A stretch of DNA of 64,000 bases from Lytechinus pictus (lineage: Eukaryota): positions 23,066,001-23,130,000 of the forward strand of contig NC_087251.1 of assembly GCF_037042905.1 (NCBI RefSeq), written 5' to 3'. The notes below the pieces were generated by a model. It was not told the DNA's origin and did not search any database. It saw only the letters and a list, made by a program, of their open reading frames with translations. A program made the translations under genes and the position numbers. Below, piece after piece: positions 2,750 to 49,127 of this stretch. The first letter of the stretch is position 1, and every line of letters starts with the position of its first letter.

Positions 2750-2921
2750 CGTATCGTACTATACGTGAGGCTATCATTATCAAAGCGTTACCTGTGTGTC
2801 GCTAACGCTGATGGAGGGATGAATCAGCCAGTTCAAATTGCAAAAATCACTACAGCTATAGTCCTAAACTGTCGATGCGTGACCCAGTTTTGGCCTAAAA
2901 ATTCCTATGTGGCAGGGAACG

Positions 2922-11889: not shown

Positions 11890-11932
11890 ATGAGGACAAT
11901 AATTCAACGAGTCACCAAAGCTAGTGTCACTG
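11890..11932 (+). CDS. DTD1: DTD1 exon 1 (MRTIIQRVTKASVT)
   Basis: Canonical DTD N-terminus M-R-x-I-I-Q-R-V-x-x-A-S-V; GTAAGT donor, phase 1; CpG-rich region just upstream (~11785-11855). Confidence 0.95.
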
Positions 11933-14900: not shown

Positions 14901-17900
14901 TCCTGTGCACTCCTGTTCCAATAAAGTCAAATCACTAAATCTCTCCTATTAGTATTAAACATATAATAAAAACCTAACTGAAGAAGGTGAACACATAACA
15001 ACTCAGATGTAAACAAGATGAATCCCAGGTCGGCACTCACTTTACTTTCTTTTCTAAAAATCACATGTACCAATGCACTCCATTAAATCATTAATCAACT
15101 CAACCAGTCAAATAAAAGAAAAGTGGTATAGCCCATTTAAAAAATGAACTAACCTTATTCAAAAATAAGAACCTATAAAGCAAAGAGGGGTGATCATGAG
15201 GTGGAACTGAATGGGAACTAAACAATAAGGCCATGTGGAGTAGAAAAGCAATGTAAAACTAGGAAGCATGACTGAGGGCAAATGATTGAGAGAATGAGAT
15301 GCAATGAACCTGGTGAATTGCCGTTGCTATGACAGACGAACAATGTTTAGTGGAGATGGAATGAAGGATGAGATTAGAACACAGTAATGTATGTCAAATT
15401 TGAAGATAGAATGAAGGATGAACTCTTGACTTGGGATGTAAATAAACAAATTTATGATTTTATGAAAATTTTTCATTCTGTAATAAGAGATCCAATTGAT
15501 GAAGAAGACTAAATATTTTGCTGATACTATCGATATCAAACAATGTCGCGGACTTGGGGAAAAAAATTGCCTCGATATGTGGTCTACATAATTATGTAGT
15601 TAAATTATTTTGCACGCTGGTTCAACTCTGATGACACTCTGTTTTGTAACTTTCTTTATATTCTTCTTTCACTGCATCACTTTCTACAGTTGGTGATGAA
15701 TTGATAAGTAGCATCGGGAGAGGGCTCTGTATTCTTGTTGGAATATCAAAAGATGACACTCCTAAAGAAAGAGAATACATGTAAGTATAGTTACAATGTA
15801 GGTTCTTCTTTTAAGCCAAACCTACAGTACATCGCCAGGGGTATCACCACAGGTTAAAAATGTCTGGATCCTGGAAAATACACCTACATGTATACAATCA
15901 TCTTTTGCAGATTTTTTTTTAAAGGAAACTCTCATTGAATTATGATATACATGTACATGTTGGTTTAAAAATTTGTAATGCAACATGCAGGGAGCCTTGA
16001 AGAATAATTTTTTGTTTCATATGTATGTTAAAGTCAAAGTTAAAATAAAAGTATTTTGAATATTTTATCTTTCATATATCATCAGCATACAACTAGTATG
16101 TGTTTGTAACTTATTTTAGTTTTTGATAGCAAAATTTCAGAATATAAATCTTTTATTTTGCATCTAATTTCAGGAAATTTCAGTTTTATGCTTGTTTGGT
16201 TATTTATTTATTTTTTTTCATTAAAATAAACTTTATCTGTATTCTGACTCAAGTACATTTCAGAAAAATTGTATCTTCTTCCTCCTCCGATGATCAGTGA
16301 CGGTGATCAACAGCTCTCAGCTGTAAGGAAAATCAAATCTAAGTACAGGTCATACATTGTAGGTGCATGGATATTGTTTTTTGTTTAAAAAAAGTTCAGT
16401 TCTGGGGTATAGCAGCATAGAAATAGGGTTTGGAGAACCCTATAACAGTTTTAAGTTGGAAGGACAGGGTTTGGGAGAAGGATGAAGCGTTAGAAGGCAA
16501 GTGGGTAGGCTTTCCTTTTAAAGGCAGACTGTTGAGATAGAAGAAGAGGAAGCTAAGTGATGGGCATATCATTTGTCACACTGACGTATGTATATTAAAA
16601 ACAAGTTATTAAGATTAAGATACACATATAAAAACGACAGCCAGTTGTTAATTCTTTTGAAATTATTTGTATTTTTCCCCTCAGAGTCAGGAAGATTTTA
16701 AACCTGAGATTGTTTGATGATGAAAATGACAAAAGATGGGCAAAGAGTGTCAGAGACAAACAACTGGAAATCCTGTGTGTGAGTCAGGTATGTTGGATTC
16801 ATTTTTAATTCTATCGTCATTAGGGCTATATAAACATTTAAATTTGTATTGTGCTTTGCGCCCTTTTTGCAGTCTGTTTTCATATTGCATTGTCTGAGTT
16901 TTTGGAGATGAACAAAGCCTGTTTACCTTTGCCATGCATCGCAATTTTGACCATGATTTGTGTAAAGCTGTTTAAGGCAAATTAATCACTTCAGGCATTT
17001 TTACTCTGATCAATGTATACATTTGTAGGTGAAGATCACAGATTAATCTCGTATTTTTGAAATGGAAGTTGAATTTCAGAAAAATAAAATCTTCAAAGAA
17101 TTCTTTGTTAGTTTCAAGGAACTAGATTTCTAAAATGCCCCTTGGCTTTATTTAGACGGTGAAAAGATATTCATTTGTAGGCCATTATTACTTTGAATGA
17201 AGGATAATTATGATGCATAATTTCCTTCTTAATCTTTTCTATGATTAATATTTGCCATTTAAACGTCATGCTGTTAGAGATAGAAAAAATAATATATTCC
17301 AATTGTTTTGTTATCAACGCTATAATAATAATATACGATGTGTGTAGGCAAGCATATATGGCAGTTCAATGCCCCCTTTTACAGTGTAGATTTAAAAAAA
17401 TGATCCTTCTAATTTTCGGAGATTCATGTTTCATAGCTGTATTGCATTTATTTATTTTTTGTTTTATATTTCAGTTTACACTATACTCTATACTGAAGGG
17501 TAATAAACCAGATTTTCATCAGGCAATGCCAGGTGATCAGTCACAAATATACTACAATGAATTTCTTGATATGTTGAGAGAGGATTATCACCCTGATAAG
17601 ATTAAAGGTAAGCTTGTATATTTGCATTATCAGCTGAACAGCAATTCTAAGTAGGCCTACCGTAATTTTATAATTATAATGGGGGTAATGTATATTGACA
17701 TGTCATCACTAGACATATGTATGCTGATGAAATGATGGCTGAGTCATTGGAAATATAACTTTCTGGATTTCAATGCCATCTTTACTTGTCGGAATTTAGT
17801 ATTTTGTTGAATAAAATTTTAGATGGAATTTGAACGCTTTGAACGCCGGTAGAAAAATAATTAAAGAAATAATAGATTTCCATGTTCCTCACAGCCATTA

Positions 17901-20900
17901 TGTTGTATCTGTTATGATTATCGAATGAAATTGATTAAGTGAAATCGGGCCCGTTTTATAAAGACTCACAAGTGTTGTAACTTTGCTACTATGGCAACTA
18001 CCATGGCAACAGGGCTCAGCAGCCAATCAAAATCAAGGTTACCATGGTAGTTGCCATAATGGCAAATTTACAACAGTTGCAACTCTTTATGAAACTGGCC
18101 CCTGAAGTGCTCTGGAGACAAGTATTTGTGTAATCTACAATTGATGTACACATGCATGTATAAATTTTGGATGTCATGACTCATGACCTTATGTTAACAC
18201 ATTCTATTTGAAAATAATCATGGACTTTCCTAATCTTTAGATCTTAAATTCTTATATTACAGTATTGAACAATGTAGATTTCTGAACCATAACTATTGAA
18301 ATCACAAGCAGGTTGTTAATTAAAGCATGTCACACCTTCTCATTTTCCTGTTATAAATTACATTTTAATGTTTATGATGTCTCCTTGAGGAGGCAATGCC
18401 TTGATACATCTTGCACCATTTGTCAAATTAAATTTTCATTTTTTTAATAAATTTTTTATTCATTAAAATCGGTTGTGAAATAAGCAAGTTATGGACGTTT
18501 AAAGAGTCCTGTTGCACTCTCTATGGGAATCCCCAAATTGGCAAACATGCCTCAAAACGGCGGACCCCGCGACAACCCTCCATCCGCTTTGCACACAAAA
18601 TTTCAGATCCTCCCCATTATCTTTAAAATTGCATATTGCCTCATTCTGAGCATAACATTAAGTCATAGGAAAATATATTTCACACCACATATATCAAGGT
18701 TAGGAGATGATGTGAAATATGTAAAACAAATTGATGACATGCAGTACAGTAGAGATATGATTCATATGAATGTATATGTTCGCCCCACTGTGATGGAAAA
18801 AGTGCAAGGGATGTTGAAGGCAGTGATGCACAAGACAGTGATGCACCTGGACAAGAAAATGGAGACATACGATATTGCCAATCCTACTTCTATAATTTAA
18901 TTTTCACAGATTTTAAGGTTTTAATTTGAATGTGAATATCGTGTTTTACATTCAGGCAGAATTAAATAGCACAAATTAGGCTGCCATCACTTGTTACCTC
19001 AGAACACCATAATTTGACAGGAGCCATGGTGGCTCAAAGTATTGGTATGATGGGCCCATTGGCCTTGTTCATAAGAGTTTGGAACTCACTTGAGATTATT
19101 GTCATTTAGTCTGATGCCCACATGGTCTTATCCTAGCTCATCTTCAACCAGTTTGTCTTTAAAAAAAATAGCCAGATTACAATTTTCCCAATTTCCAGTC
19201 AAGCTAATGTTGTATACTACCTACAGTAATGTACCGGTATGCAAATTTTGCGAAATATCCAGTCGATCTAACACCGCATAGTAAGTTGACACTACAGAGT
19301 GGACATTACATACATATTGACAGTTAGCTCAAGTACATGTATGTGGTGATGGTTGGACTAATTGGCAAAGACCAAGTGGGTTTAGCCATGATGGTGTTAG
19401 ACGATTTTCTGCCACATATACGTAGTTGACCAAGTGATTACGAAACTTGTCATGAAGGCATGCATGTTCACATCCATGCTTACTGTGTAGAGTGACATTC
19501 TCATACTTAAATTGGCAGATGGTCGATTTGGAGCACACATGCAAGTTCATATACAAAACGATGGACCTGTCACCATACAGCTAGACTCACCACCAGACTC
19601 TGGCATGAGCACGGGTCAGGAGTCTGCAGGCAATGCCGACCTGTTGAGGCACTCCAGACAGGTGAGTTTGAAGTTTGCAGTGAAGGGTGTTTCTATCTCA
19701 TGTAAAATGGCAATTGTATTTGTGTGATGTGAATAGAGCAGGCCTTAAAATTTTGATATGATATTGTGAGGGCGAGGTCGTGTTGCTATAGGGCATATCT
19801 CTATATTGCAGTACAAATTAGGCACAACAAATATCCGAGGCCGATCAGAGGGGCATTGAGGCCAATCAATAGACCATCAGAGGTTTGTGGCCTTGGTGGC
19901 CTTGGATTAATTCATGCCCTGATAGAGTGTATGGATATGTGGATACCTTAGTGCCTAATTATGATTTCTAGAGGATAGAGGGGGGGAAGTAGAGAGACAG
20001 ACAGAGAGAAAGAAGGAGAGAGAGAGAGAGGGCATGATTCAGAGTGCTAGGGGGAAGAGAGCAGTGAAAATTGAAGAGTACACTACACCTTACATATATG
20101 TTTACAATAGGTGCATTTTTTAAGATTATCAAAGGGAGGCGAGAATCAGAGAATGCATCGTGTTTGATATTTTTAAGCATTTACATGCATCTCTATTGAC
20201 ATTCATTAAAAAAATTATTTGTTAGTGATGATGGACTATTGTACCATAAATCAATATGCCAGTCTTTCTTAGTTAAAATGTGTAAACAGTCATTTTGAGT
20301 GCACTTGTTGCAATCGCAAGAATCAATATTTCCTGGGTTATGTTATGTGATGTTGTCTGTAATAATGCAAAGTGGATACAGCATGTAATGGTTGGTGTTC
20401 TTTACAGCTTGTCCAATTTTGAAATTATTCTTCACAGATTTGCATGTGTCCAGCAGTTTTCAGTGCTTGAGATTTGAATACAAATGATGTACTTTATTGT
20501 AATGTTGAAGTTAAAAATCTTAACATTTTGCTACAAAAGAAGTGGAACCTATTTTGACAGTTACTACCTGTATAACCGGTTAGATTTCAAACTCCATTGT
20601 TCTTAATTCTTACATGTAGATGTATCTGTACTGTATGTCCTCATTGTCTTAATAAGAAAACCAAAATGCATGAGATCATGTTAGTACAGTACCTCTAAAT
20701 ATAAAGATATTTACCTTTGAGAATTATTGCTTTTTATTATGGTATTAATGATGTGTCTTAGACTCTGTATGCATTACTGTTTGTGTTACAATGGCCAGAC
20801 CAAAAAAAAAAAAGATATTATTAATTATTATCCTTATTCTACCCATGTTCTCCAAGAGAATTTTCCAGTGAAGTTTGTACCGATAGTACATACATGTAGA

Positions 20901-32900: not shown

Positions 32901-35900
32901 GAGAAAGACAGATTCTGATTCTGAAAACACATTAGATCACAGAAGTAGTCAAGTGCTTATATCAAATGATACACCTATGTATAGTCGGAACAAGACCACC
33001 TCCAATGCAACTCATCAACTCAATGCTCCCACACAGCTCAACTCTCACATGCAACTCAACTTTCATATTCAACTCAATCCTCACACACAACTCAATCCTC
33101 ACACACAACTCAATCCTCACACACAAGTCAATCCTCACACACAGCTCAATTCTCCTACGCAACTCAACTCTCATACACTACTCAACTCTCATTCACAACT
33201 CAGTTCTCGAGCACATCTCAGTTCTCATACTCAACTTGGCTCTCATACACAGCTCAACTCTCACACACAACTTAACTCTCACACACAACTCAATTCGCAC
33301 ATACATCTCCAAACTCAAGAAGGTTTACTGTCACGACTACAGCTGAGGCCACACGAGACTAAAAAACAGACTCACCAGAAAGTCCAGAATATTCCTCCTG
33401 AGACATCTATCACCAGAGTGAAAGTAGAAAACATTGAATCTGATTTCGATGAAACCAACATTCCTGATTTAGACCCAACTCAAGGACATATCTCACAAGT
33501 GAGTTTGATTAAAGATCCCGTCATTAGCTCATAGATAGATATTAGCTGAAATTAGAAATGCTACCAAAAGCCCTGTCATTTAAAGTTGCTTGTTTTTGCT
33601 ATTAGGCAAAACAACATAAATGAAGCCTTTCTCGAGCTTTGATGAATGGTCAAGAATGTGAATTATTCTTAAGTGTCATGATTTTTGGAAATTGAACTGG
33701 CATTTGAATAGTTTTCATCTATTGGTTCTTTGTAAAATTCTGATTTTTTTCCTGAGGATATCTGTTTGTATTTTTGTTTTGTTTGAAAGCTGTGGGGCCA
33801 TTTTAACACTTATCTTAACAAATATAAGTATTGCATATCAGATAGCCACAAAGATGATACCCTGAGATTTGAAGAAAAATCCACCAAACTACAATATTGT
33901 TAGCTAGTTACTGAATAAAACTATTATGTACTTGATGAATAAGACAACATGTGAATGAACTTCATTACCTTTCATTGAATTAAAAGGAGGAAGATGTGGA
34001 AAGAAAGGAGGAAATTGATGAAAGAGAGGTATTGCCCTCTCTTGTGAAGATTCCAGGAAATGGCATTAGAGATGGACGTAAGGACTGCATTGTGTGCTCT
34101 AGTCGTGCCAGTTTTGGAAGACGCAAAAGGGCTTACACTATGTGTAATCTGTGTAAAAGAGGTTTACATCAGAGATGTCAACAGTACCATACCTGTGGTC
34201 TTGGCAAACGACATCAAAAGGTACTCACTTGTATTCGCAGATATTGCATGTAATTCTCTTTTGATATTTGGTGATTCATATAAAGAATGTTCATTCCTAA
34301 ACAGTTGCTAATTTTCTTTTAATCATATATGGAATGCAAATTGTTATACATGATATGAAATAGTGTTTTATCAGTAAATTATTGGGTATTGTTTTTGTGT
34401 GGCATTTCTTTCAGACCTTCAGAGTCCCTTTAATAATGTCTCCTTGCTCATCCAAGTGTGTAAAAACAAAAATAGTCCTTATCATTTGGGATGAAATACA
34501 CATTCATATGACATAAAAAAATTTGGTTTTCATAAATTATTTATGAAATAATTAGCAATTGTTTTAATGTCCATTTTCTTACTCACCCTGCAAATGTATA
34601 GTATATATGTACAAAGAGACTCCATATATGAGCTCCTATAGAAACATAATTCAGAAGTAGAACTTTTTGAGAAATAAACGACTTATGTGACCATTTTTTA
34701 AATGCAAGATGATCATTTTCTTTAAATGCCAACAGGATTATGAGTGTTTTAGTCTTTGTCATTTTACTCTTTAAAAAAAATCATTTGTCTATATTAGCAT
34801 GATGTTCCGACCAAGAGATCTCCTGTGAAGAAGACACCGGTGTATACATGGATTAACAAGGTAAGGTACCAACTTGAGACACAAAAGAGAAATATAGTTT
34901 TCTTCATTTTTTATGTGTTTTACTTTGGTTATTTCCAAATTGTTTTTATATTGATCACTTTTAGACTTTTATACCGGTTATCTTGGCCATTTTTGGAGAT
35001 AAGTCCTATAAAAATCTGAAAAAAATTGTCATCTCTATACACCAAGGCAGCCAACCAAACAGTTGATTCAAATACTTTTAGGACATCAAAAAGCATAGCA
35101 CTAAAAATGTTATCAAAACCAGATGTGAATAAAGAAAAAGTTATAGCATGTCCAGATAAACTTAGCTTTCAGAAAAAGTGATACATTTATATATAACATG
35201 GATGATATGCATTTATGATATATTTCTTATGGCTTTCAGTATGTGAACTTGAAATATTTAATTACAGTCCAACCTCTCTTATCCTGACACGTTGGGACCT
35301 GCACCAATCAGGATAAGGGATTTATCCGGATTTGGGAGACCCATTAGGCAATACGCAATACATGCAGCTGCCTTTTCAATGTTAGCTACACGTAATCTAT
35401 TGTAGTGGGCGTACAGACAGTATTCACTGCTGTTTCAGTGCAAAGTATAGGCATTTTTAGGGAAATGAAATCGATTGGTAGCCATAACTGTTGGATATTT
35501 TACCTGCTGAAATGATTGAGGTATACATCGAGCATACCTCTAAAGAAAGAGAATGACTAGATGAAAATAAGTTTTAAAATTGGATCGTCCTGGCGGGCAT
35601 CGCAGCTTTGCAAAGTCAGCCATTGTTATACTACTGTTGGCTCAAACATGATAGATGGCGCTGTCCGTATCGAGGCCTGGCGCTTGCGAGACATATTGTT
35701 TTTTCCCCAGAAAACAAAAGAGAATGTGATAAAATGGTTGCGCTGTGCCCTGATTTACTAGAAAATTATCCTGTCCAAGTTCTTCCAGTGATTTGGGTAA
35801 GATATTTTCATAAAAAAATAATGTGGATGTACATGTAGGTAGGCTATATTGAAAAATGTATAATCAATGTGAGTTTGGGTAGGAATTTTTAGTTCAGATT

Positions 35901-38900
35901 GAAATTTCATTTCCTCACGTACTAGATTGAAGAAAAAAAATCTCGGCAAGTGTCCATGCGGTTAAGAGAAAGATCTGGATAAGGGGAGGTCGGATAAGAG
36001 AGGTCGGACTGTATTCTTCTTCAGTGATGTAAAACCTGGCTTGAAAACTCCATGTAAATGTGAAATTATCAACATCATGTATCTTGTTGTGAATCAGTGG
36101 AAAGCTAAAGTGATATTGAATGTGCGTCATGAACAAACCCTCATTTGTAGATCACCAACGATGTACGTATCATGGTGGTGTGAAATGGTTCAAATGAAAC
36201 ATCAAAATTCCATGACCATGTTTTTCATCCAATTTTGATCAAATATTTAGCTTTTTTTTTCTTTATTTGTGCAATCAACTTATGTTGATATGGTTTTGGC
36301 CTGTGATAAAATAAATCTCTATGACATATTTGCTATCAGCCAATCAAAAGCCTAGCATTTCCTTATATTTTTCACAGCCATGTTAATTTTGATGTTAAAA
36401 CATACATATGAAAAGAGACCGAGATTCATGCAAATAAAGTATTACAATGCCGTTTCTTTTGATTATCTGGTCTTCCAGCCTGATGGCGTGGCAGAAGAAG
36501 CCAGCCTACCGAATGAAAGCTATTCACAAGAACCTAATCAAGAAGGAACACCAATACTGGTGAAGTGTGTACCACAAACATTGATAGACTGCAAGGAGTG
36601 TGCCTACCATGACGGAAACAAGAAGTTTACCCATCTCATGTGCAACATCTGTAAAGAAGGTGTCCACAAGAAGTGCTTATATCGCCACAAGTGCCACAGA
36701 GATAAGGAGAACACAGACTCCCACGATTCTAGCATGGTAATTTTGTTACAGGGGTTCCCTAGATATAACCTAGTAATTCATAGAGATCATTCAGAATTAC
36801 AATACTGTATTACTTCTTTTGCAGTTTTATCAGTTATTTCCTTATGATTAAAGATAGGGAATTTGATACTGAGAACAGTTCCTTTTTATTGACCAATTCA
36901 CAACTCGCCCATATGTGCATTCTATAACTATGTAATCACTCTAAAATATTGAGTAAGACCCTGTGAATTTGCATGCTCTTGCAAATGCAGTATGCTGTGT
37001 AGTTATATTGAGGTTCTTTCCAGTCTCAACTGCAGTTACACACTCATCATTCTGGATTTGAGTGGGGATTTTGTTTTTTATGCTTGCCTTACAAATTAAA
37101 CCTGCATTCTCCCTGTAATTGGGTTGTGCAGAGCTGCCAACCATTACAATACAATTCCAGAAACCTAGACAAAGTTCAAAGGTCATTGGGGTCAATACTG
37201 GCAGGTCAGGTGTCAACTCTAAGATTGGGAGGAGGGACATCATGACTCTCCCCCCCCCCCCTTTTCAGGGAAACACAAAGACAGCACCACAGATTTCCTT
37301 TGAAGTCTCTTGGCAGTTCTGAGGTTTGTCACCCTGTACGATGCCACTGAACTTTATTTCAGTGTCTGCATCTGCAGGAACATAGAGAACTCACAGAATA
37401 ATCTTGATAAGTGATTTCTTATGACTAATGACAAGAATGGAGTTAAGGAGAACCCACTGTACTGAGCTATGGATTATTCTTGAAAAGGTGAATTTGTTTT
37501 TCTGCTTGAAAAAGAGGAATTAAGAGGTCCAATTCATACCTTTTTTTAAGTTGGCATGTGTGAAGTCGCATCATGAGCAGTGTGACTTGTATCAAAGCTG
37601 ATGAGTGTACATTTTGTTTTAAAAACTACACAGAACACGGGAACATTTGTTGGAGAGAGACCATTGGTGATTAGGATAGAGAGTCACGAGGTCAAAGATG
37701 GGAGGAAATCTTGCGATGTATGTTCCGGAAAGATTCGGGACGGGAAGAGACACAGATCAAGAACTCAGTGTGCAGTTTGCAGAAGAGGTTTACACTTTCG
37801 ATGCCTTTCCCAACACATCTGTCCTGGAATGAGCATTGTACCTGTGAGTTTCCCATTACGATCATTTATTTAGGTCTTTTTAAGATTGTTATTATGACAA
37901 AACATCATTGAACTCATCAATGTAATTGCAAGGAAGATCCAGTTAAGAACGTGTATGACACATTATCATATGTTTTATCTGTGTCATATTATTTGTTGTC
38001 CCTTTAGAATACTTTCATTAGTTTCATATCACTGTAAATCACCCTTCCTAATCTTTTGAAAGTCAATTTATTTGAAATCAAATCCCATTCCGAGGTATAA
38101 GAGATTGCAAATATATGTTTGATTGTATTATTTTCATTTCATGCAGGATGCAATATATGGTAATTTACCCAACGGCCCTATGTCAATGAGTGTTCCAAAT
38201 GACAGTGAGGTAGATGATGTGATAGAGACAGGATTCCATGAACCTCATCACCAGCATCTTTTGACACCTTCTACATCGAATTTAAACTTTACTGATGTAA
38301 GTTGAAATGAGATGGGGACATATTTCTACATGAAAACTCGGCTCTTAACCCACAATAAATCAGTAAAAGCCACATACAAATATTTTATTTTAAGTCAGTG
38401 AAAGCTATTTATAGTTTTGAAAACAATTTGATGAAGCAGATCCAGACTATTGTAATGCAGTGGATAAGTCTCCAGACTTTGAATTTAAACAACGGAACAG
38501 GGAACCTGGATAATTTATAATAATAGTACTAAAGTAATTATTTTTGTTGTTATTGTTGCCATCGTCATCGGTACTGTTGTTATTGTTATGATTATTATCT
38601 TTAGTAGTGCTAGTAGTAGTAGCAGCTGCAGTAGTACTATTTTCAACCACTAATAATGAGCTTTGTAAATGGATGTGAATGAATATACTGCTGCAAACTG
38701 ATATCCCTGATTTTTTTAGTGTATGTATCGAGGTAAATGTAAATTAATTATACCTCTAATGCTAAGCCACCATTGTTCGTGGTGATTTTTTTTTCTTGGG
38801 GGAGGACGATTTAATTGGTAAATATGTTTGTTCACATCAATGCTAAATCATGATCTTGTACCTGCATCAATATTTTTTGTTTTTCTTGCAATAGGCTAAT

Positions 38901-41900
38901 TCTCCAATTGGGAAAGAAGAGAGGAATAAGGATTCTAAACTCCTTAAAACAGGCCAAGACAAATTCTGTTCGGTATGCCCTTCTGGCCAGAAAACAAGGA
39001 TGGCTTGCCGTGTATGTAAAGAAAGTGTTCATCCTAGGTGTGAATGGCGCCATTTCTGCAAGGTCAAGGAGGCTTCCAAAAGCAGCACACTGGTAAGAAT
39101 TAATTCAATGAATTATGTGATTCCTATCTGGTATCCAAAAAAATTGTTTTATGAATATCCAGGGTTCCCACAGTCATGGAAAATCCTGGAAAAATTTGTG
39201 GTCATGGAAAGTCAGGGAAAAGTCAGGGAATTTGGAAAATTTGTGAAAAGTCATGGAATTGCATTTACCTTTCCGATATGGCAGCTTTCCAGTTTGACGT
39301 GTCTCGCAACTCTCATACTCTGCTATTATAATTGGTGTTCATAATGTCCATTTTTCCCAGTTTTGTGACATCCCAAATTCTACATAACTCCCGGGACGTC
39401 ACAGGAAGTTATGAAAAGCAGCAATTTAGTCATGGAAAAGTCATAGAATTCTGTTTTCAAATTTTTGTAGGAACACTGATATCTGTTCCAGTGGCAGAGT
39501 AACAGAGTGCATTAAAGATCAGACAGGCGAGTTGTTGTGAATTTACCCTTAAAAAGATTGATATTTTCATTCCTAAATAATTGGGGCATTTTTATTCCTG
39601 AAAATAACTTGGATACTTTTTCCTCAAAAGACTGAGTTGGATGATTCATCCCTTCTACCTTTAAGATCTCAGTCAAATTTAGTATGCATGTATTGTTTAC
39701 TTCAAGAATTTGATATCTTATCTGATTTTAATTTAATTCAAAGTAATCATAATAATATGCATTTTAAAAAATCATTTTTGCATCTTCATTTCCCACCTTA
39801 TTTCCAATTCTTCTTTTTCTTTTAATGTAGGTATCTTACATCATGATTTATAAATTGAATATTCTAATTTTTTATTGTCTCACCTGCATAGCAGAGTGAG
39901 ACTATAGGCTCCGCTTTTCTGACGGCTGCGGCGGCGTCAACGACAAATCTTAACCGAAGGTTAAGTTTTTGAAATGACAGCATAACTTAGAAAGTACATG
40001 GACCTAGTTCTTGAAACTTGGCCATAAGGTTAATCGAGTATGACTGAACATCCTGCCCGAGTTTCAGGTCAAATGACCTAGGTCAAAGGTCATTTAGGGT
40101 CAATGAACTTAGACCATGTTGGGGGAATCAACATCAAAATCTTAACCTAAGGTTAAGTTTTTGAAATGTCATAACTTAGAAAATATATAGTCCTAGTTCA
40201 TGAAACTTGGACATAAGGTTAATCAAGTATTACTGAAAATCCTACCTGAGTTTCGAGTCACATGATCAAGGTTAAAGGTCATTTAGGGTCAATGAACTTT
40301 GGCCAAATTGAGGGTATCTGTTGAATTACCATCATAACTTTAGAAGTTTATAGACCTGATTCATGAAACTTGGACACAAGAGTAATCAAGTATCACTGAA
40401 CATCCTGTGCCAGTTTCAGTTCACATGACCAAGGTCAAAGGTCATTTAAGGTCAATGAACTTTGGCCATGTTGGGAGTATTTGTTGAATTACCATCATAA
40501 CTCTGTAAGTGTATTGGTCTAGTTCATAAAACTTGGACATACGAGTAATCAAGTATCATTGAACATCTCTTGCGAGTTTCAGGTCACATGACCAAAGTCA
40601 AAGGTCCAATGTCATTTATTGTCAATGTACGTAGTATTGTATCATTATATGAATGGTGTTTTTTGTGAATAATTATTTTATAGTAGTTTTCAAAGTCAGC
40701 ACTGCTGCTATTTTGAATCGTGTGATGCAGGTGAGACTGCCAGAGGCACTCCACTTTTTTTTGTTATAAAATCTGTGCAGATTTTAGCCCAATATATGAA
40801 TTTTCTTCTTTTTCTTTTTTTGGAGGGGGGGGGGAGTGGTTTTCCTAGATGTATGTATGTACATGAGATGTCTTTGTTTTGTTATTTATTAGGAGTTCTC
40901 TTTTGCAATTGTTTGACGCATATACAAGTGTTTTCAATATAATAACTAACTCTTTGATCAGATGGGAGAAAATGGTTTCAAAACAATATTCCTTTACTAC
41001 AATCACATGATGTAAGTACAAAGCAATGGGGGAAATAAAGCCTTTTCTCTGTGATGGGCATCACAAAATAACTCTGAAACAGTATCCCTGATCACAAATT
41101 TGTTGTTTCATGTCAACAAAATGATGACTTCAACTATTCATTACATTGTACCATCAATTATTCTCATTCTCAAGGTAACAAGAGGTGGACGTTTCACTGG
41201 AGAGGTGGTTAAAATCCTGAAGAGTGATGTGAAGACAAAAAAGAAAGACTGTGCAGTGTGTTCCAATCGGAAAGCTGGGAGGCGCAGTCGATCCAGTACA
41301 ATGTGTCCTCATTGTAAGAGAGGGTTGCATAGGATCTGTGCTCCTTCACACATGTGTCCAATGCTCCCTCCTTCTCAAGAGCTTCCTGAGATGGTATGTC
41401 CTAGGTGCTTGAATGCTGCCTTATTGTTTCTGCAATGTGAATGAAAAACAAAAAAAGAGTATGAATTAGATGAAGGACTGTATATTTTGTTTTAACGCGA
41501 TAAAATACTATGATGGTACAATATATTTTGCTATTTTTGGTTCATAAATCAAGTATAGTCATAAGTGAATGGAAGGGTTGTTTGGCTCATATTTTCTGTT
41601 TTGTAGTGATATTCTTAAATATCTTGTTTTTATTTTCTATTCCAGGACACTTCAAGTGATCAAGGCCCATTCGAAAAAAATGAAGAAGAAATAGAAGAAG
41701 AGGTTGATGATGATGATGATGACATGGGATATGTAGAGATCAATGATGGTATAACCCGTTACTGTTGCGTCTGTTCTACATCAAGAAAGTCACGGATCAC
41801 CCGTACAGCATGTTCATCATGTGATCGAGGCCTCCATCCACAGTGTGTTCTGCTACACAATTGTCACAGTATGGTCCCAAGGAGAATGCAAGCTGTAGCA

Positions 41901-42722
41901 TTCCAGAAACCTGTGTGTGAGGACAATGTCATGCAAGATGTAGATATAGTGCGCTCCACCACTTCTCTCATGGAAGAAGTCGAGGCTTCTGATCATCCAA
42001 AAGATGAATATGTAGATCAAACAAGTGAAGTTCCTCAAACATCTGGAGGATTTGACACAGGGATAACATCTGTAAAGATACTTGATGAAAGAAGGGACAT
42101 GTCTGGTGAGATAAAAAAATACCTGCTAATTACAGAGGACAGTTCAGACGAAATCTCTGAGGATGGAGAGGCGACATCGGTTGAGAATCCTGATGTAGGG
42201 GATGCAGAGGAGGTGGTGCATGAAGTGACTGAGAGCAAAGACCAGATAGATGGTTTAAACAAAGAGTCTGCTGCAGAAGGTGAAAATTCTCAGCAGCAGC
42301 AGCAACATTCTGAGGCATCGAACAACATGGAACCACCTTCAGAATGTTCAGATTCACCATACCCTGATATCCAGAGTGGCAGTTCTGATACACATCCCAT
42401 TGACAGGGTAGATGAGCCAATGGATAGGAATCAAGATCTCCATGATGGCGATACACCACACTCAGGAGATGTTGTGCATCCAGCCCTTGCACATACAGGA
42501 CTGATTTTAGAATGTAGTGATAGTCAAGATGATATTGAGATTGGGTGTTTCAGCACCTTACAAGGCAATCATTTGCACACTGATCAATCTAATCAAGAAT
42601 TGGATGATATTGTAGCCCAAATCAGGGAAGAGCTACACCAGGTGGTAGGAGTTCAAGATCAAATGCTTGACCTTAACCAGTTAGAGGGGGAAGTTCTTGC
42701 CATTCAGCCAGATTGCATGTAG
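11890..42722 (+). CDS. DTD1: 18-exon gene model: D-aminoacyl-tRNA deacylase 1 fused to ten Cys/His zinc-finger repeats, a QLNSHT repeat and an acidic tail (~1483 aa)
   Basis: Exons 11890-11932, 15690-15780, 16685-16787, 17475-17607, 19519-19661, 22238-22504, 26918-27145, 29672-29869, 31625-31828, 32866-33498, 33987-34220, 34798-34860, 36479-36736, 37634-37843, 38147-38296, 38895-39092, 41175-41393, 41646-42722. All introns are GT-AG and the frame stays open throughout. The exon 5 to exon 6 join is inferred. Confidence 0.75.
12272..12911. mobile_element. MITE-like element in DTD1 intron 1
   Basis: Inverted ends GTGTCCAAACTTCGCG ... CGCGAAGTTTGGACAC. Confidence 0.55.
13029..13421. mobile_element. 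MITE with ~65-bp terminal inverted repeats
   Basis: CTCAGGCGATGTTCGTGCAGGCTCCACTTCACTACCGCTACACTAC... is mirrored at ~13351-13421; GTAC lies next to both ends. Confidence 0.8.
13443..13975. mobile_element. Inverted copy of the 61488-62019 MITE family
   Basis: GGGGGCACTC...TTTTTGGTCGAGTACCCCCC termini and internal similarity to 61488-62019; a terminal fragment also occurs at ~3083-3149. Confidence 0.75.
14406..14698. mobile_element. Truncated copy of the HINE-like element
   Basis: Reverse-complement match to ~9595-9870 (GCAGGTGAGACTGCCAGTGGCGCTCCACTTGTT end). Confidence 0.75.
15690..15780 (+). CDS. DTD1: DTD1 exon 2 (VGDELISSIGRGLCILVGISKDDTPKEREY)
   Basis: IGRGLCILVGI motif; TTTCTACAG acceptor and GTAAGT donor; phase 1 to 2. 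Confidence 0.95.
16685..16787 (+). CDS. DTD1: DTD1 exon 3 (IVRKILNLRLFDDENDKRWAKSVRDKQLEILCVSQ)
   Basis: KILNLRLF and W..SV..EILCVSQ motifs; CCCTCAG acceptor, GTATGT donor. Confidence 0.95.
17475..17607 (+). CDS. DTD1: DTD1 exon 4 (FTLYSILKGNKPDFHQAMPG...HPDKIK)
   Basis: Completes the SQFTL signature; KGNKPDFH motif; TTTCAG acceptor, GTAAGC donor. Confidence 0.95.
17947..18103. mobile_element. Short palindromic MITE (PIF/Harbinger-like)
   Basis: GGGCCCGTTTTATAAAGA ... TCTTTATGAAACTGGCCC with internal inverted ATGGCAACTACCATGG / CCATGGTAGTTGCCAT. Confidence 0.65.
19519..19661 (+). CDS. DTD1: DTD1 exon 5 (DGRFGAHMQVHIQNDGPVTIQLDSPP...RHSRQ)
   Basis: FGA.MQV.IQNDGPVT motif containing the Gly-cisPro; ends CAG|GTGAGT in phase 0 without a stop. 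Confidence 0.95.
22238..22504 (+). CDS. Exon 6, Cys/His finger 1 (CCVC...CRGCGRGLHQKCAMLHQC)
   Basis: ACACAG acceptor, AAG|GTGATT donor, 267 nt, phase 0-0. Confidence 0.8.
24317..25704 (+). mobile_element. 5'-truncated non-LTR retrotransposon (CR1/L2-type reverse transcriptase C-terminal half, 3' UTR, A-tail)
   Basis: GVPQGSILGPLLFLIYMND, LFADDT, WFKANKLSLN, KFLGV and YCNLVWG motifs in the ORF ending at 25329; AATAAA at 25672 and an A-run at 25694-25704. Confidence 0.92.
26918..27145 (+). CDS. Exon 7, Cys/His finger 2 (CIEC...CVGCDHNLHEMCRADHDC)
   Basis: Polypyrimidine tract + TAG, CAG|GTACGG, 228 nt, phase 0-0. Confidence 0.85.
27303..27380 (-). mobile_element. tRNA-derived SINE head or tRNA pseudogene
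   Basis: Minus strand has an A-box-like TTAGTGGT and B-box GGTTCAAATCCC; stems degenerate. Confidence 0.5.
27522..29165. mobile_element. Non-autonomous DNA transposon with eight internal 16-bp direct repeats
   Basis: TIRs TGGGCTATTCCACGG / CCTGTGGAATTGCCCA flanked by TA (or ATAT); GGTTACTCAC[G/A]TTAC repeated at 27535, 27713, 27901, 27916, 28586, 28606, 28624 and 28789. Confidence 0.75.
29672..29869 (+). CDS. Exon 8, Cys/His finger 3 (CCVCSNR...RRRSQTVCYYCKRGLHWQCRFNHNC)
   Basis: TTTCTCTAG acceptor, CAG|GTAAAT, 198 nt, phase 0-0. Confidence 0.88.
30076..30469. mobile_element. TTAA-flanked MITE (Kolobok-like)
   Basis: TTAA|AGATAAATACCAGT ... ACTGTCTTTTACCT|TTAA. Confidence 0.55.
30833..31591. 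mobile_element. piggyBac-type MITE
   Basis: TTAA TSD, CCCTAAATAGACTGGG ... CCCAGTCTTTTTAGGG termini, subterminal GGGGCTGA[T/A]TCAGCCCC palindromes at both ends. Confidence 0.8.
31625..31828 (+). CDS. Exon 9, Cys/His finger 4 (CVVC...RHRSRTICKFCKKGLHRKCEHRHLC)
   Basis: TCTTACAG acceptor, AAG|GTAAGG, 204 nt, phase 0-0. Confidence 0.88.
31841..32234. mobile_element. Near-fully palindromic PIF/Harbinger-like MITE
   Basis: TAA TSD; TGGCCCGAATTCACAA ... TTGTGAATTCGGGCCA; the arms pair along most of the length. Confidence 0.85.
32866..33498 (+). CDS. Exon 10, low-complexity linker with (QLNSHT/QLNPHT)n 18-bp repeat
   Basis: TTCTGTAG acceptor, CAA|GTGAGT, 633 nt open in phase 0-0; contains QKRRK and VKVE. 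Confidence 0.8.
33987..34220 (+). CDS. Exon 11, Cys/His finger 5 (CIVC...RRKRAYTMCNLCKRGLHQRCQQYHTC)
   Basis: AAG acceptor (weaker), AAG|GTACTC, 234 nt, phase 0-0. Confidence 0.82.
34798..34860 (+). CDS. Exon 12, 63-nt linker (HDVPTKRSPVKKTPVYTWINK)
   Basis: TATTAG acceptor, AAG|GTAAGG strong donor, phase 0-0, open frame. Confidence 0.6.
35265..36011. mobile_element. Tc1/mariner (pogo/Tigger-like) MITE
   Basis: TA|CAGTCCAACCTCTCTTATCC ... GGATAAGAGAGGTCGGACTG|TA. Confidence 0.8.
36479..36736 (+). CDS. Exon 13, Cys/His finger 6 (CKEC...CNICKEGVHKKCLYRHKC)
   Basis: TCTTCCAG acceptor, ATG|GTAATT, 258 nt, phase 0-0. Confidence 0.85.
37634..37843 (+). CDS. Exon 14, Cys/His finger 7 (CDVC...RHRSRTQCAVCRRGLHFRCLSQHIC)
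   Basis: ACACAG acceptor, CCT|GTGAGT, 210 nt, phase 0-0. Confidence 0.85.
38147..38296 (+). CDS. Exon 15, linker (DAIYGNLPNGP...SNLNFTD)
   Basis: TTTCATGCAG acceptor, GAT|GTAAGT, 150 nt, phase 0-0. Confidence 0.75.
38895..39092 (+). CDS. Exon 16, Cys/His finger 8 (CSVCPSGQKTRMACRVCKESVHPRCEWRHFC)
   Basis: T-rich tract + ATAG, CTG|GTAAGA, 198 nt, phase 0-0. Confidence 0.85.
39875..40757. mobile_element. HINE-like element, inverted relative to 9595-11448, with fewer monomers
   Basis: TTGTCTCACCTGCATAGCAGAGTGAGAC hairpin, GGTCAAAGGTCA monomers, GAGACTGCCAGAGGCACTCCAC end. Confidence 0.8.
41175..41393 (+). CDS. Exon 17, Cys/His finger 9 (CAVCSNRKAGRRSRSSTMCPHCKRGLHRICAPSHMC)
   Basis: TTCTCAAG acceptor, ATG|GTATGT, 219 nt, phase 0-0. 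Confidence 0.85.
41646..42722 (+). CDS. Terminal exon 18: acidic run, Cys/His finger 10 (CCVC...CSSCDRGLHPQCVLLHNC) and long acidic tail
   Basis: TATTCCAG acceptor, phase 0, 358 codons to the TAG at 42720-42722; followed by kilobases of AT-rich UTR-like sequence. Confidence 0.85.
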   Translation, partial: DTSSDQGPFEKNEEEIEEEVDDDDDDMGYVEINDGITRYCCVCSTSRKSRITRTACSSCDRGLHPQCVLLHNCHSMVPRRMQAVAFQKPVCEDNVMQDVDIVRSTTSLMEEVEASDHPKDEYVDQTSEVPQTSGGFDTGITSVKILDERRDMSGEIKKYLLITEDSSDEISEDGEATSVENPDVGDAEEVVHEVTESKDQIDGLNKESAAEGENSQQQQQHSEASNNMEPPSECSDSPYPDIQSGSSDTHPIDRVDEPMDRNQDLHDGDTPHSGDVVHPALAHTGLILECSDSQDDIEIGCFSTLQGNHLHTDQSNQELDDIVAQIREELHQVVGVQDQMLDLNQLEGEVLAIQPDCM

Positions 42723-49011: not shown

Positions 49012-49127
49012 TTAATTTCACTTTGAAATTCTAATCCACGTATATGGGCGAAGCTTTCACCTTTCAGAGATTTGCCTGATCATCAGTTTACGATCACTAA
49101 CTGTATTGTCCTCTTCTTGTTTATCAG

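What the first reader, a model, noticed from the sequence alone, without database searches (positions are those of the whole stretch)
11890..42722. D-aminoacyl-tRNA deacylase (DTD1) apparently fused to a ten-finger Cys/His zinc-binding array
Seen: an intact DTD1 domain (SQFTL, GNKPDF, NDGPVT) ends at a phase-0 donor without a stop. Thirteen downstream same-strand exons all open in phase 0 and splice into one ~1483-aa frame with ten related fingers. I found no separate promoter or start exon for the array. Established: DTD1 is normally a ~150-210-aa homodimeric chiral proofreading enzyme, and vertebrate DTD1 (DUE-B) has a C-terminal tail implicated in DNA and replication-origin binding. Inference: a chimeric nuclear protein in which the DTD dimer would present about 20 nucleic-acid-binding fingers. 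I do not know of a described protein with this architecture.
Basis: partly seen in the sequence, partly recalled or inferred. Interest (0 to 1): 0.92.

Follow-up and report, generated by a model that had tools for sequence, protein, structure and literature searches.

The report
DTD1 gene with intronic piggyBac-finger array
A sea-urchin D-aminoacyl-tRNA deacylase gene carries, inside its fifth intron, twelve in-frame exons encoding ten zinc fingers derived from a piggyBac transposase, and these are most likely spliced onto the enzyme's first five exons as an alternative to its normal conserved tail.

Summary
DTD1 exons 1-5 (11890-19661) end at a phase-0 donor. Exactly ten C-x2-C...C-x2-C-x4-H-x2-C-x3-H-x-C fingers lie downstream on the same strand, in phase-0/phase-0 exons.

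1. The conserved end of echinoderm DTD1 lies beyond the array, at 49128-51569. It is three exons encoding a PAH-like tail. The array therefore sits inside DTD1 intron 5. The canonical product is 329 aa, 295/329 identical to an urchin transcript-derived protein.

2. [quoted passage not shown] 20 of 69 profile hits are PF13843 transposases, and those examined carry the finger at or near the C-terminal end.

The exon 5 to finger-exon joint (19661->22238) appears in two automated NCBI models of Lytechinus pictus. RNA contigs support it indirectly. They carry a 30-letter upstream overhang whose last four letters match the end of exon 5. RNA depth is zero in two of the three bins between the exons (19968-20634, 21302-21968). 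I could not see joint-spanning reads.

Best reading: a host-transposase fusion made by alternative splicing, like human CSB-PGBD3, with an unusual host (a tRNA proofreading enzyme) and a tenfold CRD array. This is a new variant of a known kind, of moderate interest.

The parts
11890..11932 (+). DTD1 exon 1 (ATG; MRTIIQRVTKASVT, ends in phase 1)
   Evidence: tblastn of P0001/P0003; borders. CpG observed/expected is 0.86-1.18 at 11-14 kb, suggesting the promoter lies here.
15690..15780 (+). DTD1 exon 2
16685..16787 (+). DTD1 exon 3 (ends ...CVSQ; the SQFTL motif spans the exon 3/4 joint)
17475..17607 (+). DTD1 exon 4 (FTLYSILKGNKPDF...)
   Evidence: Pfam Tyr_Deacylase E 2.3e-9
19519..19661 (+). 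DTD1 exon 5 (NDGPVT; ends ...HSRQ, CAG|gtgagt, phase 0). This is the shared donor for both 3' alternatives.
   Evidence: Pfam E 7e-7. 13-15 (X19) and 8-9 (X20) stranded RNA reads cover the variant places 19525 and 19616.
22238..22504 (+). Array exon F1 (finger 1), acceptor ...gacacag|GATTTG
   Evidence: Contigs X1 record 1 and X2 record 8 align from 22234 with 26 extra upstream letters. P0001 and P0030 join it to exon 5.
26918..27145 (+). Array exon F2 (finger 2)
   Evidence: The length of contig X2 record 8, 1161 = 30+267+228+198+204+234, fits exactly.
29672..29869 (+). Array exon F3 (finger 3)
31625..31828 (+). Array exon F4 (finger 4)
32866..33498 (+). Array exon without a finger: low-complexity HTQLNS-type repeats (211 codons)
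   Evidence: Contig pieces 32864-33099 and 33114-33498. An in-frame 9-nt deletion at 33375 appears in 4/4 and 8/8 reads. Internal DNA repeats are shown.
33987..34220 (+). Array exon F5 (finger 5)
   Evidence: Contig X1 record 7 has 297 letters between 33498 and 36479, which equals 234+63.
34798..34860 (+). Candidate 63-nt array exon (no finger), donor AAG|gtaagg
   Evidence: Of the open AG...GT candidates listed, the one with a strong donor whose length, together with F5, gives 297 nt. It ends in AG, which explains why the contig piece starts at 36477. Inferred, not seen directly.
36479..36736 (+). Array exon F6 (finger 6)
   Evidence: Contig pieces 36477-36736 (X1 record 7) and 36477-36717 (X2 record 15).
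37634..37843 (+). Array exon F7 (finger 7); borders from splice signals only
38895..39092 (+). Array exon F8 (finger 8); borders from splice signals only
41175..41393 (+). Array exon F9 (finger 9)
   Evidence: The relative P0031, from an unnamed run, is 76% identical.
41646..42722 (+). Last array exon (finger 10 plus an acidic tail, stop at 42720-42722); AATAAA at 43186
   Evidence: Single copy in the genome. The relative P0037, from unnamed runs, is 55% identical over 327 aa.
49128..49288 (+). Canonical DTD1 exon 6 (SGSKTPVAVVK...), acceptor in phase 0
   Evidence: tblastn of P0003, P0009, P0011 and P0013
50754..50958 (+). Canonical DTD1 exon 7 (PAH-like region)
   Evidence: tblastn at 90% identity to P0003. 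PAH PF02671 scores 23.0 bits (cutoff 21.3) in P0003.
51459..51569 (+). Canonical DTD1 exon 8 with stop (...LSTTQS*)

Best explanation
This is one DTD1 locus with two alternative 3' ends. Exons 1-5 encode the complete D-aminoacyl-tRNA deacylase domain and end in phase 0. The conserved route splices exon 5 to exons 6-8 (49.1-51.6 kb), giving the 329-aa DTD-PAH protein typical of echinoderms and hemichordates. Intron 5 (phase 0) also holds a 20-kb block of about 12 symmetric phase-0 exons with their own stop and poly(A) signal. These exons encode ten copies of the piggyBac-transposase cysteine-rich domain: a two-zinc, cross-brace-type finger with a C4-H-C-H-C ligand pattern. Splicing exon 5 to the first of these exons (19661->22238) gives a protein of about 1430 aa, the DTD domain followed by ten CRD fingers.

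Shown: the exon geometry, the open frame, transcription of the array from the + strand, splicing among the array exons, and the homology of the fingers to transposase CRDs.

Inferred: that the upstream partner of the first finger exon is exon 5; that the array arose by capture of a transposase CRD exon in the intron followed by ancient exon duplication; and that the product tethers a DTD dimer to DNA or chromatin. piggyBac-family CRDs are reported to bind DNA sequence-specifically (PB) or histone H3 tails (PiggyMac, Tpb2).
For: 1. Geometry. tblastn places the conserved DTD1 tail exons at 49125-51566, beyond the array. The canonical model is 329 aa with GT-AG borders throughout and is 295/329 identical to P0003. 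The fusion model is 1433 aa with a single terminal stop, and all 12 array exons have lengths divisible by 3.

2. Single-copy locus. DTD1 exons, fingers and the last array exon occur only here in the 812-Mb assembly.

3. Joint. The NCBI L. pictus models P0001 and P0030 read ...LLRHSRQDLVNLKRKY..., and P0030 is 725/761 identical to my model. RNA contigs X1 record 1 (324 nt) and X2 record 8 (1161 nt) align from 22234 and carry 26 further letters upstream. Exon 5 ends ...GACAG and the intron ends ...cacag, so a contig carrying exon 5 would align exactly 4 letters past the acceptor. 26+4 = 30 = k-1 for 31-letter words, which is the signature of an upstream exon with two downstream partners. Of the six ACAG|GT sites upstream of 22238 in the window, only 19661 is a known exon end.

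4. No visible separate first exon. Stranded RNA depth is 0 in 19968-20634 and 21302-21968 in both raw-read runs. Finger exons are covered only by first-mate-on-minus reads, as exon 5 is. There is no CpG-rich stretch at 20-23 kb.

5. Levels. Depth at exon 5 exceeds or equals depth at finger exons in all four runs: 13-15 against about 3-6 in X19, 8-9 against about 4-9 in X20, and contig depths 32.9 against 9.2 (X1) and 46.7 against 27.5 (X2).

6. F1 has no in-frame ATG before its finger. It reads as an internal coding exon.

7. Finger identity. The ten-finger profile finds 69 proteins among 1.84 billion. 20 of the 69 reach the Pfam gathering score for PF13843 (piggyBac transposase core), and 2 more fall just below it. 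In every case where I read the position, the finger sits at or near the C-terminal end. Named examples are PGBD4-like proteins of Mytilus and Nomia. Transposases match the window only with their last 40-60 residues.

8. Precedent. [quoted passage not shown] Transposase capture by alternative splicing is described as recurrent in tetrapods (bioRxiv 10.1101/2020.05.07.082677, passages read).
Against: 1. No read or contig letters spanning 19661->22238 were actually seen. The joint table showed 15 rows, with 217 more not shown, and the 26 overhanging letters were not printed. The joint rests on arithmetic, a 4-letter coincidence and automated gene models whose evidence I cannot inspect.

2. One bin between exon 5 and F1 (20635-21301) has low depth on both strands (0.55-1.23) at a flagged repeat. 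A short private first exon there is not excluded. An ACAG|GT site at 21234 lies in it, although it would predict a 5-letter extension, not 4.

Its use is inferred from conservation and from the k-1 overhang.

4. No remnant of a transposase core or transposon ends lies in the window. 106 of 127 ORFs of at least 75 aa were scanned; the 21 left out overlap the DTD1 and array exons, and eleven of those had been scanned. Only an RVT_1 fragment was found. tblastn agrees. The capture step is therefore historical inference.

5. The sea-cucumber protein P0032 (581 aa, two such fingers) is annotated as stand-alone with its own start, so multi-CRD proteins need not be fused to DTD.

6. No other species shows the DTD+finger architecture. 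0 of 69 profile hits carry PF02580. All 28 DTD hits carry PF02580; two also carry PAH (one of these a third family, PF23116); none has any other family on record.

7. The S. purpuratus model P0029 simply reads through the exon-5 donor.
Confidence: 0.68

Rival explanations
1. Nested independent gene. The finger array is a separate gene lying in DTD1 intron 5 on the same strand, with its own short 5' exon and promoter. The phase match with exon 5 is coincidence (1 in 3), and the NCBI fused models are annotation artefacts.
For: Same-strand nested genes are common (general knowledge). A stand-alone two-finger relative is annotated in Holothuria (P0032). No joint-spanning letters were seen. The bin 20635-21301 has some RNA depth. 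The array has its own stop and an AATAAA at 43186.
Against: F1 has no in-frame ATG ahead of finger 1. Contigs of two runs both stop exactly 30 letters upstream of the acceptor, which is expected for a shared exon and not for a private one, and the 4-letter extension fits exon 5's ACAG. RNA depth is zero in two of the three intervening bins, and there is no CpG-rich stretch. Two NCBI models carry the joint.
Confidence: 0.2
2. Non-functional exonised transposon debris. The joint exists, but the array transcripts are splicing noise or NMD substrates, and no stable DTD-finger protein is made.
For: The array evolves fast. A relative's last exon is only 55% identical, while the canonical DTD1 model is 90% identical to P0003. 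It is not shown that P0003 and P0037 come from one species. No protein-level data exist. No paper on the architecture was found.
Against: The array has 1262 codons in 12 exons without a stop at about 35% G+C, and 80 of 80 zinc ligands are intact. Finger exons share no DNA-level similarity, so the duplications are old and the frames have been kept. Intact related ORFs occur in other runs: the P0037 cluster has 8 members and the P0031 cluster 3. The only indel seen in a coding exon is in-frame, 9 nt. Finger-exon depth is a quarter or more of exon-5 depth, and in X20 similar to it.
Confidence: 0.08
3. Cassette use. Because all array exons are symmetric phase-0 exons, some of them are included between exon 5 and exon 6, giving DTD-finger(s)-PAH proteins rather than, or in addition to, a product that ends in the array.
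For: All 11 internal array exons have lengths divisible by 3, and exon 6 starts in phase 0.
Against: Contig X1 record 7 (3046 nt) runs 2106 letters on beyond 36736, which is long enough to reach the last array exon and its 3' UTR. No evidence for any array-to-exon-6 joint was obtained.
Confidence: 0.04

Closest known systems
CSB-PGBD3 (ERCC6-PGBD3) fusion of primates
   Same: A piggyBac-derived coding sequence lies in intron 5 of a host gene. Alternative splicing joins host exons 1-5 to it, and the full-length host protein is still made from the downstream exons (PMC3459987 and PMC2268245, search listing and start of abstract).
   Different: There the whole PGBD3 transposase ORF is captured as one unit. 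Here only the roughly 40-aa CRD finger is present, multiplied tenfold over about 12 exons, with no transposase core left. The host is a tRNA-editing enzyme, not a chromatin remodeller. The joint is not yet shown by reads.
Host-transposase fusion genes by transposase capture (Cosby et al., bioRxiv 10.1101/2020.05.07.082677)
   Same: [quoted passage not shown]
   Different: That survey covers tetrapods, and KRAB is the host domain it names as favoured. Whether it includes an echinoderm case, a Tyr_Deacylase host or a CRD-only array I did not check; its tables were not read.
piggyBac-family CRDs (PB of Trichoplusia ni; PiggyMac/PGBD type)
   Same: The Cys/His finger with a basic spacer lies at or near the C-terminal end of PF13843 transposases. 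It is described as a binuclear cross-brace zinc finger (PMC8086355, passages read; PMC5861402, abstract). The predicted fold ties, at low Z, with the piggyBat CRD (9c0f, Z 2.9, 29% identity over 42 residues) and the PB CRD (5lme, Z 2.8).
   Different: The ligand order here is CxxC-CxxC-HxxC-HxC. PB has CxxC-CxxC-CxxH-CxxC, and the PiggyMac motif was first read as CxxC-CxxC-CH-CxxxH (PMC8086355). Pfam zf-Tnp_2 (PF13842) does not match any of the ten. This genome's own piggyBac copies carry ...GV[AG][VC]CP.C...H or ...GVGCHEKC... endings instead.
Ambulacrarian DTD1 with a PAH-like tail; vertebrate DTD1/DUE-B
   Same: Exons 1-5 plus 6-8 give a 329-aa protein, 295/329 identical to P0003, which has PF02580 plus PF02671. 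As in DUE-B, a DTD domain carries a C-terminal extension.
   Different: The finger isoform replaces the PAH-like tail. DUE-B's replication role is itself questioned by a 2026 preprint titled 'DUE-B Is Dispensable for Early Development and DNA Replication in Vertebrates' (listing and start of abstract only).

Membership tests
D-aminoacyl-tRNA deacylase (Pfam Tyr_Deacylase PF02580) | Full-length match to the domain profile above the gathering score | tested here: met
   P0030, the L. pictus model that is 725/761 identical to the window's fusion model, matches positions 1-144 of 144 at E 2.2e-54. Window exons 4 and 5 alone score 38.2 and 30.1 bits against a cutoff of 25.
D-aminoacyl-tRNA deacylase (Pfam Tyr_Deacylase PF02580) | Signature motifs SQFTL and the Gly-cisPro motif N-x-G-P-V-T (motif names recalled; Gly-cisPro is named in the abstract of PMC4880308) | tested here: met
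   VSQ|FTL spans the exon 3/4 joint; GNKPDF and NDGPVT are present.
D-aminoacyl-tRNA deacylase (Pfam Tyr_Deacylase PF02580) | Deacylase activity and homodimer formation | not testable with these tools
   Needs an enzyme assay of both isoforms.
piggyBac transposase cysteine-rich domain (CRD) | Match to Pfam zf-Tnp_2 (PF13842) | tested here: not met
   0 of 10 finger exons at E <= 1. The transposases that carry this finger variant (P0045, P0047, P0056) also show no PF13842 hit at E <= 0.001.
piggyBac transposase cysteine-rich domain (CRD) | Homologous finger located at or near the C-terminal end of transposases with the PF13843 core | tested here: met
   20 of 69 profile hits reach the PF13843 gathering score, and 2 more fall just below it. 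Fingers lie at e.g. 495-535 of 538, 633-675 of 676 and 395-438 of 439. The same eight-ligand pattern is seen in P0045, P0047 and P0056.
piggyBac transposase cysteine-rich domain (CRD) | Two-zinc cross-brace fold | tested here: inconclusive
   AF2 model pLDDT 79.8. Foldseek finds no match at E <= 0.001, best are C1 domains at E 1.6. VIA-align gives Z 2.9 to the piggyBat CRD and 2.8 to the PB CRD, tied with zf-HIT, AN1 and C1.
piggyBac transposase cysteine-rich domain (CRD) | Binding to DNA or histone tails | not testable with these tools
   Needs EMSA, SELEX or a peptide array with single fingers and the whole array.
Host-transposase fusion gene born by alternative splicing (CSB-PGBD3 type) | Transposase-derived coding exons inside a host intron, on the same strand and in a compatible phase | tested here: met
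   The array at 22238-42722 lies within intron 5 (19662-49127). Intron 5 is phase 0 and all array exons are 0/0.
Host-transposase fusion gene born by alternative splicing (CSB-PGBD3 type) | Transcripts joining host exons to the transposase-derived exons | tested here: inconclusive
   Two automated NCBI models carry the joint. The contig overhang of 26+4 letters fits exon 5. The joint itself was not displayed.
Host-transposase fusion gene born by alternative splicing (CSB-PGBD3 type) | Co-existing parental transcript | tested here: inconclusive
   Exons 6-8 are intact, and a DTD-PAH protein predicted from a 1731-nt contig of an unnamed run exists (P0003).
Host-transposase fusion gene born by alternative splicing (CSB-PGBD3 type) | Recognisable transposon remains (core ORF, terminal repeats) at the site | tested here: not met
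   No PF13843 hit in 106 of 127 window ORFs of at least 75 aa. Transposases match only by their CRD. Terminal repeats were not searched for.
PHD finger / C1 domain | Pfam match at the gathering score | tested here: not met
   Only sub-threshold hits. The best are zf-HC5HC2H at 20.9 bits (cutoff 29.1), SLX1_C at 20.8 (cutoff 27.2), and C1_1 at 11.6-15.2 (cutoff 26.5) in 4 of the 11 array ORFs scanned.
Ambulacrarian DTD1-PAH | DTD domain followed by the conserved tail with a PAH (PF02671) match | tested here: met
   The window's canonical model is 295/329 identical to P0003, which scores 23.0 bits for PAH against a cutoff of 21.3. P0009 (Asterias) scores 21.4. The margin is small. Single window exons do not hit because the domain spans exons 6 and 7.

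The most novel reading that the evidence does not exclude
Sea urchins make a stable protein of about 160 kDa in which the dimeric chiral-proofreading enzyme DTD is tethered to chromatin or specific DNA by ten transposase-derived CRD fingers per subunit. It is used as an alternative to a PAH (Sin3-type) tail. DTD1 in this lineage would then be a bifunctional gene whose nuclear role is set by a splice choice between two chromatin-directed modules. It would be the first host-transposase fusion with a translation-fidelity enzyme as host, and the first built from an amplified CRD alone.
Probability: 0.3. Interest if true: 0.72.

Novelty: new variant of a known kind. Interest (0 to 1): 0.55.

Why it matters
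If the joint is confirmed, the transposase-capture route to new proteins, documented mainly in tetrapods, would extend to an echinoderm. The partners would be unusual: a housekeeping tRNA-editing enzyme as host, and only the small cysteine-rich domain of piggyBac, expanded into a ten-finger array, as the captured part.

It would also give a natural case in which one enzyme domain receives two alternative chromatin-type tails (PAH-like or CRD array). That bears on the disputed nuclear role of DTD1/DUE-B.

Practically, three annotations need revising. The S. purpuratus 174-aa DTD1 model and the two L. pictus models look incomplete, and the canonical echinoderm DTD1 is a protein of about 330 aa with a PAH-like tail.

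Tried and rejected
- Sequencing runs: no RNA holder was listed on record. Raw RNA runs were found only by species label.
- Read lay: the joint table was filled by repeat-derived joints, with 15 shown and 217 hidden.
- Word-index protein searches. F1 with 'longer' found only the P0001 cluster (1 of 11 candidates). The last exon with 'longer' found nothing (0 of 1735 candidates). So no long annotated orthologue of the array was retrieved. This is weak evidence, because P0030 itself is hidden as a member of a 245-aa representative's cluster.
- Pfam on finger exons: nothing at gathering score.
- Foldseek against PDB: no match at E <= 0.001. VIA wide: all Z <= 2.9. PDB profile search: best E 0.022 (MLL PHD3, ribosomal uS14), piggyBat transposase E 0.053. 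The fold class is only suggestive.
- Search of the own genome by alignment was not accepted. It was redone with a single finger, which found fingers of this type only at this locus, 6 matches from 10 candidates (a lower bound).
- Self-BLASTN of intron 5: no DNA similarity between finger units, so recent tandem duplication is rejected.
- The Holothuria protein P0032 as an orthologue: only its two fingers match the window. It is treated as a family member, not an orthologue.
- Earlier findings of this scan: none, in three look-ups.
- Literature: no paper holds 'D-aminoacyl-tRNA deacylase' together with 'sea urchin', 'piggyBac' or 'paired amphipathic helix' in the library searched.
- Two scripts failed on a wrong exon-4 border. 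This was corrected.

Full report
**What is in the sequence**

The window is sea-urchin DNA. The best protein match to DTD1 exon 5 is a Lytechinus pictus model at 98% identity, and exon contigs from runs of the same species label show 0 differences.

Five + strand exons have GT-AG borders: 11890-11932, 15690-15780, 16685-16787, 17475-17607 and 19519-19661. Together they encode 171 residues of a complete D-aminoacyl-tRNA deacylase domain and end ...HSRQ|gtgagt in phase 0. Exons 4 and 5 pass the Pfam Tyr_Deacylase cutoff on their own.

A six-frame regex scan of all 64 kb finds exactly ten fingers of the form C-x2-C-x(8-16)-C-x2-C-x4-H-x2-C-x3-H-x-C. All are on the + strand between 22349 and 41864, and none is elsewhere. 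The eight ligand columns are invariant.

Echinoderm and hemichordate DTD1 proteins are 297-353 aa: P0003 from a 1731-nt contig of an unnamed run, Asterias P0009, Amphiura P0011 and Ptychodera P0013. After ...SRQ they continue with a conserved tail, SG.K.PVA.VK..., that carries a Pfam PAH match. That match is marginal: 23.0 and 21.4 bits against a cutoff of 21.3 in P0003 and P0009.

tblastn puts this tail in the window at 49125-49286, 50752-50958 and 51456-51566. With GT-AG borders, the eight-exon model gives 329 aa, 295/329 identical to P0003.

DTD1, the fingers and the last array exon are each single-copy in the 812-Mb assembly. The finger array (22238-42722) therefore lies inside phase-0 intron 5 of DTD1, on the same strand. 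Exon 5's donor has a conserved partner at 49128.

**The array as a transcription unit**

I reconstruct 12 array exons, listed under parts. All have lengths divisible by 3. Joined to exon 5 they give one open frame of 1433 aa with a single stop at 42720-42722.

Stranded RNA reads cover the finger exons only with first mates on the minus strand, as for exon 5.

Contig lengths fit the model exactly.
- X2 record 8 is 1161 nt = 30 + 267 + 228 + 198 + 204 + 234. That is 30 upstream letters, F1 to F4, and the repeat exon up to 33099, where an internal repeat breaks the assembly.
- X1 record 7 (3046 nt) has 297 letters between 33498 and 36479. That equals F5 (234) plus a 63-nt exon, for which 34798-34860 is the candidate with a strong donor.
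- The 2-letter shifts of piece ends (32864, 36477, 22502) are each explained by exon ends in AG.

These are arithmetic inferences. Most contig pieces were not displayed.

**Is exon 5 really joined to F1?**

The direct table was not informative: 15 joints were shown, all repeat-derived, and 217 were hidden. The evidence is indirect.

(a) Two NCBI models of L. pictus contain ...LLRHSRQDLVNLKRKY.... XP_054751490 (245 aa) then shifts frame within F1. XP_054759351 (LOC129265376, 761 aa) goes on to F2's first residues, F9 and the last exon. It is 725/761 identical to my model.

(b) Contigs of two runs align from 22234, four letters before the acceptor, and carry 26 more letters. Exon 5 ends GACAG and the intron ends cacag, which predicts exactly a four-letter extension. 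The total overhang of 30 = k-1 for 31-letter words is what a de Bruijn contig shows when the upstream exon has two downstream partners. That Logan contigs use k = 31 is taken from the tool text on 31-letter words and from recall.

(c) Of six ACAG|GT sites upstream of 22238, only 19661 is a known exon end. The site at 21234 would give a five-letter extension and has a poor donor.

(d) RNA depth is 0 in 19968-20634 and 21302-21968 in both raw-read runs. The bin 20635-21301 has 0.55-1.23 on both strands at a flagged repeat.

(e) CpG observed/expected is 0.86-1.18 at 11-14 kb but 0.19-0.44 at 20-23 kb.

(f) F1 has no in-frame ATG ahead of its finger.

(g) Exon-5 depth is at least as high as finger-exon depth in all four runs.

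I put the joint at about 0.8, and the whole best explanation at 0.68.

**What the fingers are**

Pfam gives only sub-threshold PHD, C1 and zf-HC5HC2H hits, and no zf-Tnp_2.

A profile of the ten fingers, searched against 1.84 billion representatives, finds 69 proteins. All 69 were scanned with Pfam.
- 20 reach the gathering score of PF13843, the piggyBac transposase core, and 2 more fall just below it.
- None has Tyr_Deacylase.
- In the long transposase hits the finger is at the C-terminal end: 495-535 of 538, 633-675 of 676, 395-438 of 439.
- It shows the same eight-ligand pattern and the same basic K-x-K-D-C-x-V-C-S...R-x-R-[ST] context.
- Named members are PGBD4-like proteins of Mytilus and Nomia.
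- P0061 carries this variant next to a classical zf-Tnp_2 finger.
- Other hits pair the finger with BTB (P0068) or zf-AD (P0061).

Transposases match the window only by their last 40-60 residues. No core remnant is found in the 106 ORFs scanned, and the only mobile-element domain is an RVT_1 fragment at 24265-25326. This genome's own piggyBac copies have other CRD endings.

The literature describes piggyBac-family CRDs as binuclear cross-brace fingers with varying ligand order. The PB CRD binds DNA sequence-specifically. The PiggyMac and Tpb2 CRDs bind histone H3 tails (PMC8086355, passages read; PMC5861402, abstract). The ligand order here, CxxC-CxxC-HxxC-HxC, is neither of the two orders quoted there.

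The AF2 model (pLDDT 79.8) ties at low Z with the piggyBat and PB CRDs and with other small two-zinc fingers. The fold class is only suggestive.

**Age and constraint**

Finger exons share no DNA-level similarity and only 24-50% protein identity, so the duplications are old. Intact related ORFs of F9 (76% identical) and of the last exon (55% over 327 aa) occur in other runs. The only coding indel seen in reads is in-frame. 80 of 80 ligands and 1262 codons are intact. This argues against decaying debris. It also shows that the array evolves much faster than the DTD part, although it is not shown that the relatives come from one species.

**Mechanism proposed**

A piggyBac CRD-coding segment came to lie in phase-0 intron 5 of DTD1. 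It acquired, or brought, an acceptor and was spliced to exon 5. Exon duplication then built a ten-finger array with its own terminator. Today exon 5 chooses between exon 6 (PAH-like tail) and F1 (CRD array).

This is the pattern of CSB-PGBD3, where host exons 1-5 are spliced to a piggyBac element in intron 5 (PMC3459987, abstract). It is also the pattern of transposase capture in general (bioRxiv 10.1101/2020.05.07.082677, passages read).

Since DTD is a homodimer, the product would present two arrays. Whether these bind DNA or histone tails is not known. The DTD part may act as enzyme, as dimeriser, or merely as donor of promoter and start codon.

**Rivals**
- A nested independent gene (0.2).
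- Non-functional splicing noise (0.08).
- Cassette inclusion ahead of exon 6 (0.04).

**Verdict**

The fusion reading is partly supported but must be recast as an alternative isoform of a DTD1-PAH gene carrying a captured, amplified transposase finger. This is a new variant of a known kind. An automated partial model exists in NCBI nr. No paper on it was found.

Noticed in passing
window 49128-51569 (+); proteins P0003, P0009, P0011, P0013: Echinoderm and hemichordate DTD1 carries a conserved C-terminal extension with a marginal Pfam PAH (Sin3-type) match. No paper in the searched library holds 'D-aminoacyl-tRNA deacylase' together with 'paired amphipathic helix'.
   Followed up: partly
protein P0029 (S. 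purpuratus XP_030854415, 174 aa): This RefSeq DTD1 model ends ...HSRQVGL, so it reads through the exon-5 donor into the intron. The Logan protein P0002 does the same. It is probably a truncated annotation or an intron-retaining transcript.
   Followed up: no
window 24265-25326 (+): A 354-aa open frame with an RVT_1 match (E 5.4e-20) lies in the intron between F1 and F2. It is a retrotransposon fragment. RNA reads there have their first mate on the + strand, opposite to the host gene's pattern.
   Followed up: no
window 32980-33320 (+): The finger-less array exon is built of degenerate 18-nt HTQLNS-type repeats. It shows a 9-nt in-frame deletion in all reads covering 33375 (4/4 and 8/8).
   Followed up: partly
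window 107-2758 (-): An 884-aa open frame has no Pfam family. It contains acidic DENKHEDNVNDNELRCD-type repeats and SNDRIAVLDLA(I/L)GQTNNTSVRFAC repeats. It may be a large exon of an unrelated upstream gene.
   Followed up: no
window 22505-22576 (+): Contig X1 record 1 runs 27 nt past the F1 donor into the intron. Read-through would stop at 22574-22576 and give a short product of DTD plus one finger. The 245-aa NCBI model also ends inside F1, after a frame shift.
   Followed up: no
proteins P0068 (BTB + finger), P0061 (zf-AD + two CRD types), P0032 and P0033 (two fingers each): The same CRD variant occurs outside transposases with other host domains, and as two-finger proteins in a sea cucumber and in an unnamed run. 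This hints at repeated capture of this finger.
   Followed up: partly
window 19369-19405, 25887-25908, 28242-28268, 30184-30225: Highly expressed repeat elements in the introns give depths of tens to thousands, and hundreds of clipped reads. They swamped the joint and loose-end tables of the read lay.
   Followed up: no
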